Shown here one piece after another: positions 17,105 through 32,228 of a stretch of 64,000 bases of DNA. Every line of letters begins with the position of its first letter. The stretch's first letter is position 1. The position numbers and the translations under genes are program-made. This DNA comes from a virus. Lineage: Duplodnaviria; Caudoviricetes. Where the stretch lies: positions 101,308 to 165,307 of the IMG/VR virus record IMGVR_UViG_3300029288_000002. One strand, written 5' to 3'. The notes beneath the pieces are model-generated. The model was not told the DNA's origin. It ran no database searches and worked only from the letters and a program-made list of their open reading frames with translations.

Positions 17105-17133
17105 TTGACAAAATAAAATAGTATGCTATAATG
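17105..17133 (+). promoter_or_regulatory. sigma70 promoter of tRNA cluster 1 (third of three tandem promoters at ~16859, ~16972, 17105)
   Basis: TTGACA-N17-TATAAT. Confidence 0.8.
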
Positions 17134-17151
17134 TAAATATGAATGAATTAT

Positions 17152-17220
17152 AGCGGGTTGCGAATGGTACGCCATTGGTCTCATACGCCAATCTAAACAG
17201 TCCGAGTCTGTTACCCACTA
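17152..17220 (+). tRNA. tRNA with CAT anticodon (Met, or Ile2 if lysidine-modified), degenerate
   Basis: Acceptor AGCGGGT/ACCCACT (1 mismatch), anticodon arm TTGGT-CTCATAC-GCCAA, T arm AACAG-TCCGAGT-CTGTT. Confidence 0.55.
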
Positions 17221-17283
17221 CTTATCAGCAATAGAATATAGATATGCGGCTTGTACGGTAATCTCTATTGCTGATATTATAAT

Positions 17284-17356
17284 GCCTTATTAGCTCATTC
17301 AGTAGAGCAACGCCCTTTTAAGGCGGAGGCGGTTGGGGCAGAGCCAATATAAGGCA
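17284..17356 (+). tRNA. tRNA-Lys(TTT), atypical T loop
   Basis: GCCTTAT/ATAAGGC acceptor, GCTC..GAGC D arm, CGCC-CTTTTAA-GGCG, T loop GGCAGAG. Confidence 0.8.
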
Positions 17357-17519
17357 CTGCCAGTTTAAATATATCTATTGTTTAGCCGACAGTCTGCTCT
17401 CGATAGTTCGCTACGCCTAAGCATATACAATAGATTAATCGAATTAAACTGGTAAACATTATAACTCGGCGGCATTGGTAGTCATTATTAGACTATAACA
17501 TTGCAGCATACCGCCAAAT

Positions 17520-17605
17520 GGAGAGTTGGCAGAGTTCGGTTGAATGCACTCGTTTGCTAAACGAGACCCCGAAAGGGGTCACAGGTTCAAATCCTGTACT
17601 CTCCG
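17520..17605 (+). tRNA. tRNA-Ser(GCT)
   Basis: GGAGAGT/ACTCTCC, CTCGT-TTGCTAA-ACGAG, long variable arm ACCCC-GAAA-GGGGT, GGTTCAAATCC. Confidence 0.92.
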
Positions 17606-17654
17606 CTAAAAAGCAATATGACAATATTGCATATTATCACAAGGAGAATTTCAA

Positions 17655-18293
17655 ATGTCAAAACTCAATATTAGTGTTGCTGAGGGTTTAGCCCTATTGA
17701 AAAAGTATGATGATCGTATCGAAAAGGCACGCCAAAAAGGTTTGCTTGGTACGGTAAAGGTAGATCAGACTGTTGCCAATGGAAAGCCTATTTCCGAAAT
17801 GATTGATGAAATGAAGGCTAATTTTCAATCGTTGAATCATTTGTTTAGCAATAAGAAAGCTGTAAAAGATGCACTTACGAAAAGTAACGGCGAAACGGTT
17901 GTTACTATTGCTGGCGAAGAGTTAACTGTTGCAGAGGCTATTGAACGTAAGAAATGGATTGCTTCACGTAAGGAGTTTTTGAATCTTATGGCTCTCACCT
18001 ATAATTCTCTCAATAATACTGTTACTTCAACTAACAATAAGGTTGATGAAGGGTTTGATAGCTACTTGACTACTGTTCCTGGTGCAAAGGAAAAGACGGT
18101 ATCACAAGAAACCATTGATATGTACCGCGTAGCTTATCAAAAGAGCAAGTATATCAAATTGGTTGATCCAAACAACATTGGTAAGGTGATTGAACAGTGG
18201 AATAAGGAAGTTGAAGATTTTGAAACCACTGTAGATTTCACATTGTCGCGCAGTAATGCTTTGACAATGATTGATGTTGAGTTAGAAGATTAA
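17655..18293 (+). CDS. coiled-coil protein (LTVAEAIERK-type; resembles DIP1984/DUF6847-like proteins)
   Basis: ISVAEGL.LLK, SN..T.V.IAG.ELTVAEAIERK, LVDP, DFTLSRSNA.T.I. Confidence 0.6.
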   Translation: MSKLNISVAEGLALLKKYDDRIEKARQKGLLGTVKVDQTVANGKPISEMIDEMKANFQSLNHLFSNKKAVKDALTKSNGETVVTIAGEELTVAEAIERKKWIASRKEFLNLMALTYNSLNNTVTSTNNKVDEGFDSYLTTVPGAKEKTVSQETIDMYRVAYQKSKYIKLVDPNNIGKVIEQWNKEVEDFETTVDFTLSRSNALTMIDVELED

Positions 18294-18299
18294 TAAAAG

Positions 18300-18730
18300 T
18301 TATACTGTAGGAATTACAGAATTTTAAGCCTGTGGAGATTGTGTAAGACTCTTCGGAGCAACTGTCTATGAAACAGGAAGTTACTAAGGTAACAATTCAA
18401 GACTAAATAAGTAACATTGTGGTTATTTGAAAATATAAACACTTGACCCTTTGGCGATGAGGGTTATCATCGCCACTAATTTGATTATATCAAATAACTG
18501 ATTGAACTTGAAATTCAATCCCTTCTTTGGCTGCATTGCCAATGTGTGCGGAAACCGTACAAAAAAGTCAAAGATCAAAGGTTAAAGATTAAAAATCAAA
18601 GTTTAAAGTTTAAATTGTTAAAGATTACTTATTACAGTTTACGGTTTATAGTTAATACAAATCTTTGAACAACGGTTAAGGTACTTCAAGTATGACCGCA
18701 GATTCCCGCAAAGCTGAATAATCACAACCA
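18300..18730 (+). ncRNA. putative structured non-coding RNA with 7-nt repeat array
   Basis: No ORF of 60 aa or more; several hairpins; TYAAAGN repeats at 18568-18652; ends at a terminator. Confidence 0.6.
18568..18652 (+). repeat. heptamer tandem array, about 12 units
   Basis: TCAAAGA TCAAAGG TTAAAGA TTAAAAA TCAAAGT TTAAAGT TTAAATT (G) TTAAAGA TTACTTA TTACAGT TTACGGT TTATAGT. Confidence 0.85.
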
Positions 18731-18759
18731 AGAACCTGAGTAAAATCAGGTTCTTTTTA
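18730..18759 (+). terminator. intrinsic terminator
   Basis: AAGAACCTGA-GTAAAA-TCAGGTTCTT then T run. Confidence 0.75.
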
Positions 18760-18841
18760 TTTTGCCTATTGACAAATCGGCAATAGTATGCTAAACTACA
18801 CATATCGAATAAATAGTAGTTATTTCTATAAGGAGACAGAA

Positions 18842-19351
18842 ATGGCTAAATCGAGTAGTGTTCTCAATATTTTTGGAGCTTTGCTCACAGTGGTTGTCTT
18901 GTATTTTCTCTTTTGTATCTTCCAAAGTTTTGCAGAAGGATTGAAAGATAGTGGTTATTTTGATAATCTTGAAGCACAAGCTCAGTCATCACAATCACTT
19001 GAAAACATTACTATTACTTTGGATAATAATCCTGTTACGGTAAATGGTACACATGCTGCGGATCGAGGGCATACTGAAGCAGATGCTATTCGTGATGCGT
19101 GTGGCATGTCAGGACAAAACGCTTTTCAATTTTACATTGAGCCAGACAATGTCACACTGCATATGCTTTGTGTTTATATGGATGGCGGGAATCGTATGAT
19201 TGGAGATTGGATTGTCAAACTTGTCAAAGATGGGGAAATCTATCAAAAAATTGAGAAAACTGTTTTTAAGCCTATGGATGGTACACAGACAAAAATAGTA
19301 GAATGGCTTTTGCGCAAAAACGCAGTTAGAATCAATCCGATTTTCAAATAG
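18842..19351 (+). CDS. membrane-anchored hypothetical protein
   Basis: N-terminal TM helix; own promoter (~18768) and RBS. Confidence 0.6.
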   Translation: MAKSSSVLNIFGALLTVVVLYFLFCIFQSFAEGLKDSGYFDNLEAQAQSSQSLENITITLDNNPVTVNGTHAADRGHTEADAIRDACGMSGQNAFQFYIEPDNVTLHMLCVYMDGGNRMIGDWIVKLVKDGEIYQKIEKTVFKPMDGTQTKIVEWLLRKNAVRINPIFK

Positions 19352-30696: not shown

Positions 30697-30774
30697 AGCC
30701 CTGTAGCACAACGGTAAAGCGCGGCGTTCTTATAAAACGAAGACGGTAATAGGGTTCAACTCCCCCCAGGGCTA
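30697..30774 (+). tRNA. tRNA-Ile(TAT), some mismatched stems
   Basis: AGCCCTG/CAGGGCT acceptor, CGTT-CTTATAA-AACG anticodon arm, GGTTCAACTCC. Confidence 0.6.
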
Positions 30775-30778
30775 CTAA

Positions 30779-30858
30779 CCGAGTGTATCTCCTCAATCTT
30801 CTAAATTGCAGAAAGAGTAACTGGATATTACATGCAGGTTCAAACCCTGTCACTCGGA
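30779..30858 (+). ncRNA. tRNA-like RNA lacking a canonical D arm (TCT anticodon-like loop)
   Basis: CCGAGTG/CACTCGG acceptor and GCAGG-TTCAAAC-CCTGT T arm; the CAAT-CTTCTAA-ATTG hairpin begins only ~8 nt after the acceptor strand. Confidence 0.6.
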
Positions 30859-30947
30859 CAATTGGTAAAAGTGTGGTTGCAAACACAAGTTAGTTTTACG
30901 AATATTCGTCAGTAGCGGACACGAATTAAAAGTAACTCGCTACAAAC

Positions 30948-31029
30948 GATGATGTGCTGGAATTGGTTTACAGGACATACTTAAAATCTGTTGCCGAAAG
31001 GCATGAGGGTTCGAGTCCCTCCATCATCA
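30948..31029 (+). tRNA. tRNA-Leu(TAA)
   Basis: GATGATG/CATCATC, CTTAAAA loop, variable arm TGCC-GAAA-GGCA, GGTTCGAGTCC. Confidence 0.85.
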
Positions 31030-31031
31030 CT

Positions 31032-31106
31032 AACCGGATGGCGCAATGGCACAAGAAGACGCAGGGTAATTCCCCAAAAGTAAAGGTTCAAATCCTTTTC
31101 CGGTTA
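31032..31106 (+). tRNA. degenerate tRNA / pseudo-tRNA (anticodon arm collapsed)
   Basis: AACCGGA/TCCGGTT acceptor and AAAGG-TTCAAAT-CCTTT intact; anticodon arm only GGG-TAATTC-CCC. Confidence 0.45.
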
Positions 31107-31716: not shown

Positions 31717-32228
31717 AATGAAATTAGGAAACTATTGGTTTAGGTTCAATCATCGTGAAACATATAACGACGAAACTTTTTCACACGAAACCGTTTGCGC
31801 CATTTATGCCACAAAAGAAGCATATACAAACAGTTCTGAAAAGTATTGGTTGTTTGCTATGGCTGATGGTGTAGCAGAATGTAGGCGCAGTGATAATTTC
31901 AATCGTGCAACCGGTAGGAAACTATCATTAGAACATGCGTTGAAAGAAGCAGGCTTTGACCGTGAAACACGCAAGCAAATTTGGCAAGAATACAAAGATT
32001 CTGGCGCAAAACTGAACTAAAAGGGGTATTTTATGAGTATCAACGATTCTTTCGGTTATGACCATTGCGAGAGTGACAGAAATGAAAATTACGAAGAACC
32101 TGAACCAGTTGAAGCAGAAGAAAGTGTAAATAATTATTTTGTGTACTTCTTCTTATTTATTGGTTTGATTGTTGGGGCTATCGGAACATTTTCATTATTT
32201 ATTAAATAAAGGAGTTTTGTGAATGTAA

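What the first reader, a model, noticed from the sequence alone, without database searches (positions are those of the whole stretch)
17655..18760. Coiled-coil protein followed by a ~430-nt structured ncRNA with a 7-nt repeat array: candidate ribonucleoprotein system
Seen: the gene lies downstream of the tRNAs and is followed, before the terminator at 18730, by an unusually long ORF-free stretch for this gene-dense genome. It contains hairpins CTC-TTCG-GAG, TGGCGATGA-GGGTTA-TCATCGCCA (18452-18475; the loop region can alternatively pair with TGACCCT at 18444), GTGCGG-AAA-CCGTAC and CGGTTA...TGACCG, possible imperfect 5'/3' end pairing, and about 12 A-rich heptamers (TYAAAGN grading into TTACAGT) unlikely to self-pair. 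Known analogies: TRAP binds periodic NAG repeats; type III TA antitoxins are repeat RNAs. Inference: an RNA scaffold on which the upstream protein oligomerises one subunit per heptamer, or an RNA antitoxin/decoy. From memory, unverified, similar AAAG-heptamer tracts follow homologues of this protein elsewhere.
Basis: partly seen in the sequence, partly recalled or inferred. Interest (0 to 1): 0.8.

Follow-up and report, generated by a model that had tools for sequence, protein, structure and literature searches.

The report
Phage heptad-repeat RNA with partner protein
Behind a small helical-protein gene in this phage's tRNA region lies a real, knotted non-coding RNA of about 310 bases carrying thirteen 7-base repeats; the same gene-plus-RNA pair recurs in T5-like phages and in Bacillus-type chromosomes, only a fragment of it is catalogued, and its job is unknown.

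Summary
The 212-aa gene (17655-18293, phrog_1491, mislabelled 'tail fiber') is followed by an ORF-free stretch that holds a structured RNA of about 311 nt (18417-18727), then a terminator (18730-18755).

Its architecture is shared by every relative examined:
- a 12-bp closing helix, P1;
- a conserved single-stranded GAAAAYCNUAAAC motif;
- a 13-unit heptad array (NUYAAAG);
- a covarying 3' domain.

A covariance model of the 3' domain found one copy downstream of the gene in 51/51 distinct viral loci and in 79/80 independent bacterial-genome loci. It found nothing else in four whole genomes. No third gene is conserved.

Rfam holds only an 86-nt orphan motif, RAGATH-27. It matches the 5' domain of some relatives below threshold and does not match the window.

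The protein is predicted to form a homodimer and has no known fold or family.

The function is unknown. My best reading is an undescribed protein-RNA particle or sponge. Binding is inferred, not shown.

This scan has already flagged the same module on other genomes, in five earlier follow-ups with the same closest-known family.

The parts
17105..17132 (+). Consensus sigma-70-type promoter (TTGACA-16-TATAAT with TG). Likely start of the transcription unit: tRNAs, gene, RNA.
   Evidence: 12/12 match. Its use is inferred.
17152..17606 (+). tRNA cluster upstream: tRNA-Met(cat) 17152-17221 (ARAGORN only), a tRNA-like gene 17284-17356 (Rfam only), tRNA-Ser(gct) 17520-17606.
17649..17669 (+). Three phased heptad-like units (TTCAAAT GTCAAAA CTCAATA) across the gene's start codon. 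Possible operator for autoregulation.
   Evidence: Such units are enriched in phage homologues (12/51 start regions against 4/210 controls) but not in bacterial ones.
17655..18293 (+). Partner-protein gene, 212 aa, phrog_1491. Helical bundle with a small beta sheet; predicted homodimer.
18294..18416 (+). Spacer with small hairpins that are not conserved (includes CTC-TTCG-GAG at 18349-18358). Relatives have 2-80 nt here.
18417..18428 (+). P1 closing helix, 5' strand (TTGTGGTTATTT). Pairs with 18716-18727: 10 Watson-Crick pairs plus 2 G.U.
18429..18440 (+). Conserved single-stranded junction motif GAAAATATAAAC (family consensus CGAAAAYCNTAAAC).
18444..18475 (+). H-type pseudoknot. S1 is 18444-18450 with 18460-18466; S2 is 18452-18458 with 18469-18475.
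   Evidence: The same topology occurs in 27/40 relatives with many different stem sequences, against 9.6% of shuffles.
18476..18566 (+). Lineage-specific variable region with four local hairpins, including GTGCGG-AAA-CCGTAC at 18546-18560.
   Evidence: Not conserved in relatives.
18567..18658 (+). Heptad array of 13 units in the register N-U-Y-A-A-A-G, grading into UUACNGU.
18648..18717 (+). Conserved 3' domain. Helix Pa is 18663-18667 with 18709-18713. It also has an inner GGT/ACC hairpin and an invariant GCUG.
   Evidence: (43.1 bits, E 1.3e-6)
18716..18727 (+). P1 closing helix, 3' strand (GAATAATCACAA).
18730..18760 (+). Intrinsic terminator (10-bp stem, T-run) directly after P1.

Best explanation
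Shown: window 18417-18727 encodes a member of a widespread family of structured RNAs, 280-430 nt long, made on the + strand. From 5' to 3' it has:
- a 12-17-bp helix (P1) that closes the whole molecule;
- a conserved A-rich junction strand;
- an H-type pseudoknot;
- a variable region;
- an array of about 8-13 heptads (NUYAAAG);
- a covarying 3' domain that ends in GCUG.

This RNA always lies directly downstream of, and on the same strand as, a gene of one protein family (phrog_1491). It lies nowhere else in the genomes searched.

Inferred: gene and RNA are one transcription unit. In the window it probably runs from the promoter at 17105, through the tRNAs, to the terminator at 18730. The RNA is released or kept as a stable 3' product whose ends are held together by P1. 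The dimeric protein and the RNA then work together as a ribonucleoprotein. The heptad array would be a multi-site platform. Either it loads several protein dimers (scaffold or self-titrating sponge), or the bound protein presents it to a third, host-encoded partner.

In some phages the same heptads run into the gene's own ribosome-binding site. This suggests that free protein represses its own translation and that the RNA array competes for it.

The cellular role is unknown. The module is accessory and moves horizontally between virulent phages (usually in tRNA or early regions) and Bacillales or Clostridia chromosomes.
For: RNA structure and family:
- The P1 5' and 3' strands of the same RNA pair at -18.7 kcal/mol on average. 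Strands from different RNAs pair at -7.1. The true partner ranks first in 19/27.
- An unbiased scan puts the 5' strand directly before the GAAAAYC motif in 40/40.
- P1 has 71 G.U among 575 pairs. The + strand duplex is better than the - strand duplex in 40/40.
- In the 3' domain, 89.9% of cells are paired against 65.4% in shuffles. The covariation score is 0.636 against 0.171, reached by 0/500 shuffles. Slid controls give 35-46% paired. Helix Pa is 99.5% paired, with all four Watson-Crick pair types at two positions.
- The pseudoknot is found in 27/40 against 9.6% of shuffles.
- Heptad spacing peaks at 7, 14 and 21 nt: 44, 31 and 9 observed against about 1 expected. The independent bacterial set gives 133, 75 and 21.

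Linkage to the gene:
- Model R1 gives exactly one hit per locus, downstream and on the same strand, in 51/51 viral loci and in 79/80 bacterial loci that were not used to build it.
- It gives a single hit per whole genome, next to the gene, in 4 of 5 genomes, and a single hit in the window's own 165-kb genome.
- In 101 genomes of one bacterial family, 17 have the RNA, 19 have the protein and 16 have both, always adjacent.
- No third gene is conserved.

Protein:
- Copies of the protein are predicted to pair: score 0.71, best of 3 controls 0.00. That mark was reached by 20 of 30 proteins solved as pairs of one chain and by 1 of 23 solved as single chains. The runs agree in at least 97% of contacts, and the partner's pLDDT is at least 90.
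- Heptad-like units in the start region occur in 12/51 phage loci against 4/210 control start regions. In the window they are at 17649-17669.
Against: - There is no expression or binding evidence.
- The protein is not basic (pI 5.5-6.9). It matches no RNA-binding family or fold.
- Its invariant residues stay the same in lineages whose arrays have almost no AAAG. If it binds the RNA, the heptads need not be the site.
- Start-region heptads are not enriched in bacterial loci: 1/78 against 5/429.
- The array is not predicted to be less paired than the rest of the RNA.
- A terminator directly after P1 occurs in only 7/40 viral relatives.
- One genome (G022) has the RNA without a detectable gene. 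Three have the gene without an RNA hit above threshold.
Confidence: 0.5

Rival explanations
1. The RNA works without the neighbouring protein. It would be a decoy or sponge whose heptad array titrates a host RNA-binding protein or ribonuclease, or an RNA-only assembly like ROOL or GOLLD. The upstream gene would merely share its transcript or assist indirectly.
For: - The protein is acidic to neutral and has no RNA-binding signature.
- Its conserved residues do not follow changes in heptad composition.
- In phages the module sits among tRNAs, as ROOL and GOLLD do: 31/51 loci.
- One genome has the RNA alone.
Against: - Gene order, strand and adjacency are fixed in about 130 of 131 loci, from Pseudomonas, enterobacterial, Bacillus and Clostridioides phages to bacterial chromosomes.
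- No other gene is conserved alongside. That is hard to explain without a direct functional dependency.
Confidence: 0.2
2. It is a toxin-antitoxin-like, defence or counter-defence pair. The multi-site RNA would keep a harmful or effector protein inactive, one RNA neutralising many protein copies, until the RNA is lost or displaced.
For: - It is a stand-alone two-component module with a patchy distribution: 19 of 101 genomes in one bacterial family.
- It occurs in both phages and chromosomes, in unrelated neighbourhoods. One copy lies next to an AbiEii-like gene.
- The many repeats per RNA fit a stoichiometric sponge.
Against: - The RNA lies downstream of the gene and is closed by P1 and pseudoknotted, which suggests stability rather than lability.
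- The units are 7 nt, not the roughly 36-nt processed pseudoknot units of type III antitoxins.
- The protein has no nuclease or toxin fold match.
- The PADLOC library was not searched.
Confidence: 0.15
3. It is a purely cis-acting 3' UTR. The structured tail would only stabilise or regulate the gene's own mRNA and have no life as a separate RNA.
For: - In most loci the RNA begins 2-50 nt after the stop codon, with no obvious promoter in between.
- The window has only a weak promoter-like site at 18277-18306.
Against: - A long-range closing helix, a pseudoknot, invariant junction nucleotides and a periodic array are conserved across phyla while the gene diverges to about 30% identity.
- That is far more than known 3' stabilisers need.
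Confidence: 0.1
4. The repeats act as DNA (iterons of an origin, or a packaging or binding site), or the gene is a tail fiber as annotated.
For: - A 21-bp super-period, two helical turns, is visible.
- PHROG and GenBank label the protein 'tail fiber protein'.
Against: - Compensatory changes and G.U pairs are specific to one strand.
- Position and orientation relative to the gene are fixed.
- The module occurs alone among ordinary chromosomal genes, such as transporters and methyltransferases, with no phage genes nearby.
- It lies in early or tRNA regions, not in virion modules.
Confidence: 0.02

Closest known systems
RAGATH-27 RNA motif (Rfam RF03100, orphan candidate sRNA, 86 positions)
   Same: Its consensus holds the same UGYUUAcCGAAAACUUuAAAC stretch, followed by a hairpin. 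That corresponds to the P1 5' strand, the junction motif and one pseudoknot stem. It aligns end to end with the 5' domain of relatives L046 and L079 (46.6 and 44.6 bits).
   Different: - Those matches are below the gathering score of 76.1.
- The window itself gives no match, even at E <= 10.
- The Rfam model covers only about a quarter of the molecule. It does not include the P1 closure, the second pseudoknot stem, the heptad array, the 3' domain or the protein partner.
- I found no paper text on it.
OLE RNA with OapA/B/C; Y RNA (YrlA) with Rsr/Ro60; tmRNA with SmpB
   Same: Each is a large or mid-size structured bacterial or phage RNA that works with a dedicated protein, often encoded next to it. 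Y RNA and tmRNA also join their 5' and 3' ends in a closing helix, and tmRNA follows it with a pseudoknot and a single-stranded stretch.
   Different: - There is no sequence or model match.
- There is no tRNA-like domain.
- The protein is unrelated: no Pfam, NCBIfam or fold match.
- None of those RNAs has a 7-nt periodic array.
CsrB/RsmZ-type sponge RNAs (CsrA), and TRAP or HutP targets (periodic NAG triplets)
   Same: A short motif is repeated many times in one RNA, to bind many copies or subunits of one protein. HutP sites are UAG triplets with 4-nt spacers, which is also period 7 (from my own knowledge).
   Different: - The motif here is UYAAAG, not GGA or UAG.
- The array sits inside a P1-closed, pseudoknotted scaffold.
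- The candidate partner is a helical-bundle dimer, not a CsrA, TRAP or HutP fold.
- Binding is untested.
Type III toxin-antitoxin systems (ToxIN, AbiQ/antiQ, CptIN)
   Same: A protein gene is paired with a tandem-repeat RNA, and such pairs occur on mobile elements and in phages.
   Different: - The RNA is downstream, not upstream.
- The units are 7 nt, not about 34-40 nt.
- The array is embedded in a large conserved fold.
- The protein shows no endoribonuclease fold.
ROOL and GOLLD RNAs; Kayvirus lncRNA1/2
   Same: These are large, abundant orphan RNAs of phages and prophages that lie next to tRNA genes (PMC12286853, PMC7698491, PMC9241854).
   Different: - There is no Rfam match to ROOL or GOLLD.
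- The Kayvirus lncRNA regions lack the motifs and give no R1 hit.
- Those RNAs have no obligate protein neighbour.

Membership tests
Heptad-repeat RNA family defined here (partner of phrog_1491) | The 3' domain (AAAUCY-helix Pa, inner hairpin, GCUG) matches covariance model R1. | tested here: met
   The window hit at 18648-18717 scores 43.1 bits, E 1.3e-6, and is the only hit in the own genome. The window was in the seed. Before that, an iterated nhmmer search started from a five-sequence seed that did not include the window reached it at E 1e-5.
Heptad-repeat RNA family defined here (partner of phrog_1491) | Closing helix P1, whose 5' strand abuts the GAAAAYCNUAAAC motif and whose 3' strand abuts GCUG. 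| tested here: met
   18417-18428 pairs with 18716-18727 at -11.9 kcal/mol, and the motif lies at 18429-18440.
Heptad-repeat RNA family defined here (partner of phrog_1491) | An H-type pseudoknot after the junction motif, and a period-7 UYAAAG array before the 3' domain. | tested here: met
   The pseudoknot has 7 + 7 bp. The array has 13 units.
Heptad-repeat RNA family defined here (partner of phrog_1491) | Lies directly downstream of a phrog_1491-family gene, on the same strand. | tested here: met
   The gene at 17655-18293 matches phrog_1491 at E 4e-51.
RAGATH-27 (RF03100) | Score at or above Rfam's gathering threshold of 76.1 bits. | tested here: not met
   The window gives no match at E <= 10. 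Relatives reach 46.6 and 44.6 bits.
RAGATH-27 (RF03100) | The conserved CGAAAAC..UAAAC stretch followed by a hairpin. | tested here: met
   The window has UGAAAAUAUAAAC followed by the pseudoknot stems.
Type III toxin-antitoxin | The repeat RNA is encoded upstream of the toxin gene, with repeat units of about 34-40 nt that are cut out by the toxin. | tested here: not met
   The RNA is downstream in all loci, and the units are 7 nt.
Type III toxin-antitoxin | The toxin is a ToxN/AbiQ-type endoribonuclease. | tested here: inconclusive
   No such family or fold is among the matches. The PADLOC library was not searched.
Phage tail fiber (the PHROG and GenBank label) | Lies in a virion or tail gene module and has a fibre-like fold. 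| tested here: not met
   The gene lies in tRNA or early regions. It also stands alone among chromosomal housekeeping genes. The model is a helical-bundle dimer.
tmRNA | A tRNA-like acceptor and T-arm domain plus a tag reading frame. | tested here: not met
   ARAGORN and Rfam find no tmRNA in the window.
ROOL / GOLLD | A match to the Rfam covariance models. | tested here: not met
   No match in the window or in 20 related loci.
DIP1984 / DUF6847 protein family | A significant profile match. | tested here: inconclusive
   NF038048 is matched by 3 of 14 members, best E 0.02. PF20935 is matched by 2 of 14, E 0.061. PDB 3kdq matches at E 0.056 and at Foldseek probability 0.47.

The most novel reading that the evidence does not exclude
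An undescribed class of ribonucleoprotein, present from T5-like phages to Bacillales chromosomes. Dimers of a fold-orphan helical protein would load in register onto a 7-nt periodic array displayed by a pseudoknotted, end-closed RNA scaffold, and would titrate their own synthesis through matching heptads at the ribosome-binding site. The particle would act on a host process that phages need to control, for example tRNA or translation biology, or a defence pathway.
Probability: 0.3. Interest if true: 0.9.

Novelty: new variant of a known kind. Interest (0 to 1): 0.78.

Why it matters
- It is common. Homologues of the gene occur in 743 deposited phage genomes, including hundreds of T5-like phages that are used as laboratory and therapy models. 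They also occur in many Bacillales species.
- It is hidden behind a 'tail fiber' label.
- Only an 86-nt fragment of the RNA is in any RNA database, and no function is attached to it.
- A conserved protein-RNA pair with a periodic 7-nt array would be a new way for phages and bacteria to build or regulate an RNP.
- It can be tested at once in tractable systems: T5-like phages on E. coli K-12, and the Bacillus pumilus group.
- Correcting the annotation would also affect hundreds of genome records.

Tried and rejected
- **Rfam.** Searched at gathering and at permissive thresholds on the window and 37 related loci. Only tRNAs, skipping-rope, twister, a sub-threshold RAGATH-27 and chance hits appeared.
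- **ncr1015.** The 35-bit hit at 18724-18814 on the - strand is just the terminator.
- **Kayvirus lncRNA1/2.** Considered as possible homologues. The motifs are absent and R1 gives no hit.
- **Exact 14-mer scan of viral contigs** for the junction motif. Nearly all hits were chance. Only 4 of 80 were real, and all 4 had the gene upstream.
- **Close relatives of the window protein.** None exist; the best is 39% identical. Covariation therefore had to come from distant loci.
- **Fold searches.** Foldseek on the PDB and VIA wide gave only generic helical bundles. The ESM Atlas gave only unnamed clusters.
- **Covariation between protein residues and heptad type.** No signal.
- **Heptads at the ribosome-binding site as a universal feature.** Holds in phage loci only.
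- **'The array is single-stranded' from thermodynamics.** Not supported.
- **A terminator right after P1 as a family feature.** Found in only 7/40.
- **A pairing between the junction motif and the GGUUU of the 3' domain.** Inconsistent across lineages by eye, so dropped.
- **Anti-Shine-Dalgarno, Hfq, CsrA, tRNA-Lys anticodon and T-loop mimicry readings of the heptad.** The motif does not fit across hosts. They remain untested speculation.
- **A MAFFT alignment of the 5' domain (A4).** Too poorly in register to count pseudoknot pairs with the tool. A direct geometric search was used instead.
Full report
**What is in the window.** The window is the last 64 kb of a 165,307-bp AT-rich viral genome with direct terminal repeats. 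A consensus promoter at 17105-17132 is followed by tRNA genes at 17152-17606. Next comes a 212-aa ORF at 17655-18293. No credible ORF follows until the start codon at 18842. A strong intrinsic terminator lies at 18730-18755. TRF finds a period-7 array. Six of the seven matches in the whole window to two phased TYAAAG units are consecutive at 18568-18615. The segment 18412-18729 folds with z = -4.88.

**The protein.** It matches phrog_1491 at E 4e-51; the family label is 'tail fiber protein'. It has no Pfam, NCBIfam or PDB sequence match of note. tblastn finds it in 743 phage records: T5-like Salmonella and Escherichia phages, Pseudomonas Otagovirus, Bastille-like Bacillus phages, 132-kb Clostridioides phages, and Lactococcus, Vibrio, Erwinia and Aeromonas phages. 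The nearest relative is only 39% identical.

AlphaFold gives a helical bundle with a small beta sheet, pLDDT 75.6. Fold searches give only generic helical matches. Two copies are predicted to pair. The score is 0.71 and the best of 3 controls is 0.00. That mark was reached by 20 of 30 proteins solved as pairs of one chain and by 1 of 23 solved as single chains. The runs agree in at least 97% of contacts, and the partner's pLDDT is at least 90. The pI is 5.5-6.9 across homologues.

The tail-fiber label is not credible. The gene sits in early or tRNA regions of phages. It also stands alone among transporters, methyltransferases and proteases in bacterial chromosomes.

**The downstream region is a conserved RNA.** In three distant annotated phages the homologue is followed by 370-480 nt without a CDS and with AAAG repeats. 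I then collected 80 viral loci, which gave 51 distinct downstream sequences.
- AAAG density peaks 150-300 nt after the stop codon.
- Conserved blocks are visible by eye.
- An iterated nhmmer profile of the 3' block reached 40 of the 51, including the window at E 1e-5.

In the tool alignment of this 3' domain (A2), helix Pa is paired in 99.5% of cells and shows AU, UA, CG and GC at two positions. Over the whole structure, 89.9% of cells pair against 65.4% in shuffles. The covariation score is 0.636 against 0.171, reached by 0 of 500 shuffles. Slid controls give 35-46%.

**The closing helix.** The strand just 3' of the invariant GCUG pairs with a strand just 5' of a conserved GAAAAYCNUAAAC motif.
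- Strands of the same RNA pair at -18.7 kcal/mol on average; strands of different RNAs pair at -7.1.
- An unbiased scan of the first 230 nt lands next to the motif in all 40.
- 71 of 575 P1 pairs are G.U. The + strand duplex beats the - strand duplex in 40 of 40. The structure therefore exists as RNA of the gene's strand, which rules out the DNA-iteron reading.

In the window this places P1 at 18417-18428 with 18716-18727. The RNA is about 311 nt, and 18294-18416 is a spacer.

**The pseudoknot.** After the junction motif, 27 of 40 RNAs have a compact H-type pseudoknot of at least 10 bp, against 9.6% of shuffles. The stem sequences differ from lineage to lineage. Others have the same topology with longer loops. 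In the window, S1 is 18444-18450 with 18460-18466, and S2 is 18452-18458 with 18469-18475.

**The heptads.** Distances between successive AARG motifs peak at 7, 14 and 21 nt. The viral set gives 44, 31 and 9 against about 1 expected. The bacterial set gives 133, 75 and 21. The constant part is U-Y-A. Some lineages have UUCAAAA-type units with few G. Thermodynamic modelling does not predict the array to be less paired than the rest: 0.60 against 0.62.

**Linkage of gene and RNA.** Model R1 gives one hit per locus, downstream and on the same strand, in 51 of 51 viral loci. It gives none elsewhere in 304 kb. In 80 loci from bacterial genomes, none used to build the model, 79 have it in the same place.

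Searched RNA-first, four of five whole bacterial genomes have a single hit, and it is the one next to the gene. The window's own genome has one hit. In 101 genomes of one bacterial family, 17 have the RNA and 19 have the protein. Sixteen have both, always adjacent. No third gene is conserved. In phages, 31 of 51 loci have tRNA genes within 2 kb. In bacteria only 6 of 80 do.

**What is known.** Rfam has no family for the whole RNA. The orphan motif RAGATH-27 (RF03100, 86 positions) aligns end to end with the 5' domain of two relatives, at 46.6 and 44.6 bits against a gathering score of 76.1. Its consensus carries the same junction motif. The window itself does not match it. I found no paper that discusses RAGATH-27. 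I also found no paper that describes a T5 or other phage RNA at this position. The abundant Kayvirus lncRNAs next to tRNAs (PMC7698491, PMC9241854) are different RNAs.

After I had reached these points, the scan's own notes showed that the same module had been flagged on five other genomes, with the same closest-known family. One of those notes suggested heptads over the gene's ribosome-binding site, and I tested this. Phage start regions are enriched (12 of 51 against 4 of 210 controls), and the window has three units at 17649-17669. Bacterial start regions are not enriched: 1 of 78 against 5 of 429.

**Mechanism.** Shown: a structured RNA of the gene's strand is obligately linked to a gene for a probably dimeric protein.

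Inferred: the two are co-transcribed and function together as an RNP, with the array as a multi-site platform. In some phages the protein may also feed back on its own translation.

Against direct binding to the heptads:
- the protein is not basic;
- it has no known RNA-binding fold;
- its invariant residues (SNAxT, TVAEAIERK, DP, SNAxT) stay the same where the array has lost AAAG.

The conserved junction and 3' domain are equally good candidate binding sites. The rival readings cannot be excluded without experiments: an RNA-only decoy, a toxin-antitoxin-like or defence pair, and a cis-acting 3' UTR. No expression data could be obtained.

**Verdict.** The module is widespread and essentially undescribed, apart from a catalogued fragment. 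Its function is open and is directly testable in model phages and bacteria.

Noticed in passing
window 17284-17356: A tRNA-like gene found by Rfam (45.1 bits) but not by ARAGORN. Its anticodon loop reads CUUUUAA (UUU, Lys) and its T-arm is atypical. Conversely, the tRNA-Met at 17152-17221 is called by ARAGORN only.
   Followed up: no
window 17222-17283 and 17357-17519: The spacers between the tRNAs contain long closed stem structures (for example CAGCAATAGA...TCTATTGCTG and CCAGTTTAA...TTAAACTGG) with no Rfam match. They could be further small RNAs or processing elements of the tRNA cluster.
   Followed up: no
L260:3337-3409 and L260:3699-3767; G029:C16:25971-26040 and 32090-32159: Two R1 hits in one locus or genome. 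In a Parabacteroides MAG contig the RNA 3' domain occurs twice in tandem. In one bacterial genome a second, weak copy lies 6 kb away without a second gene.
   Followed up: no
L051:1642-1729, L219:3522-3650, L260:87-144: Other orphan or ribozyme RNAs lie beside the module. Skipping-rope RNA lies upstream in one phage and directly downstream in a Paenibacillus locus. A type-P5 twister ribozyme lies nearby in L260. This fits the 'RAGATH' neighbourhood.
   Followed up: no
L065: about 2700-2790 (variable region of its RNA): The variable region of this relative's RNA appears to contain a complete tRNA-like sequence (GGTTCGAGTCC T-arm), lying between the pseudoknot and the heptad array.
   Followed up: no
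L046:3146-3353: A sub-threshold group I intron match (40.4 bits against a gathering score of 50) lies just downstream of the module RNA in this viral contig.
   Followed up: no
G022:C1:2121610-2121682: One genome in the bacterial family sample has the RNA 3' domain (E 1.8e-5) but no protein match at E <= 1e-5. It may be a decayed gene or a solitary RNA.
   Followed up: no
window 30697-31106: A second tRNA cluster (Ile-tat, Leu-taa, and a third tRNA found by Rfam only at 31032-31106) lies 12 kb downstream.
   Followed up: no
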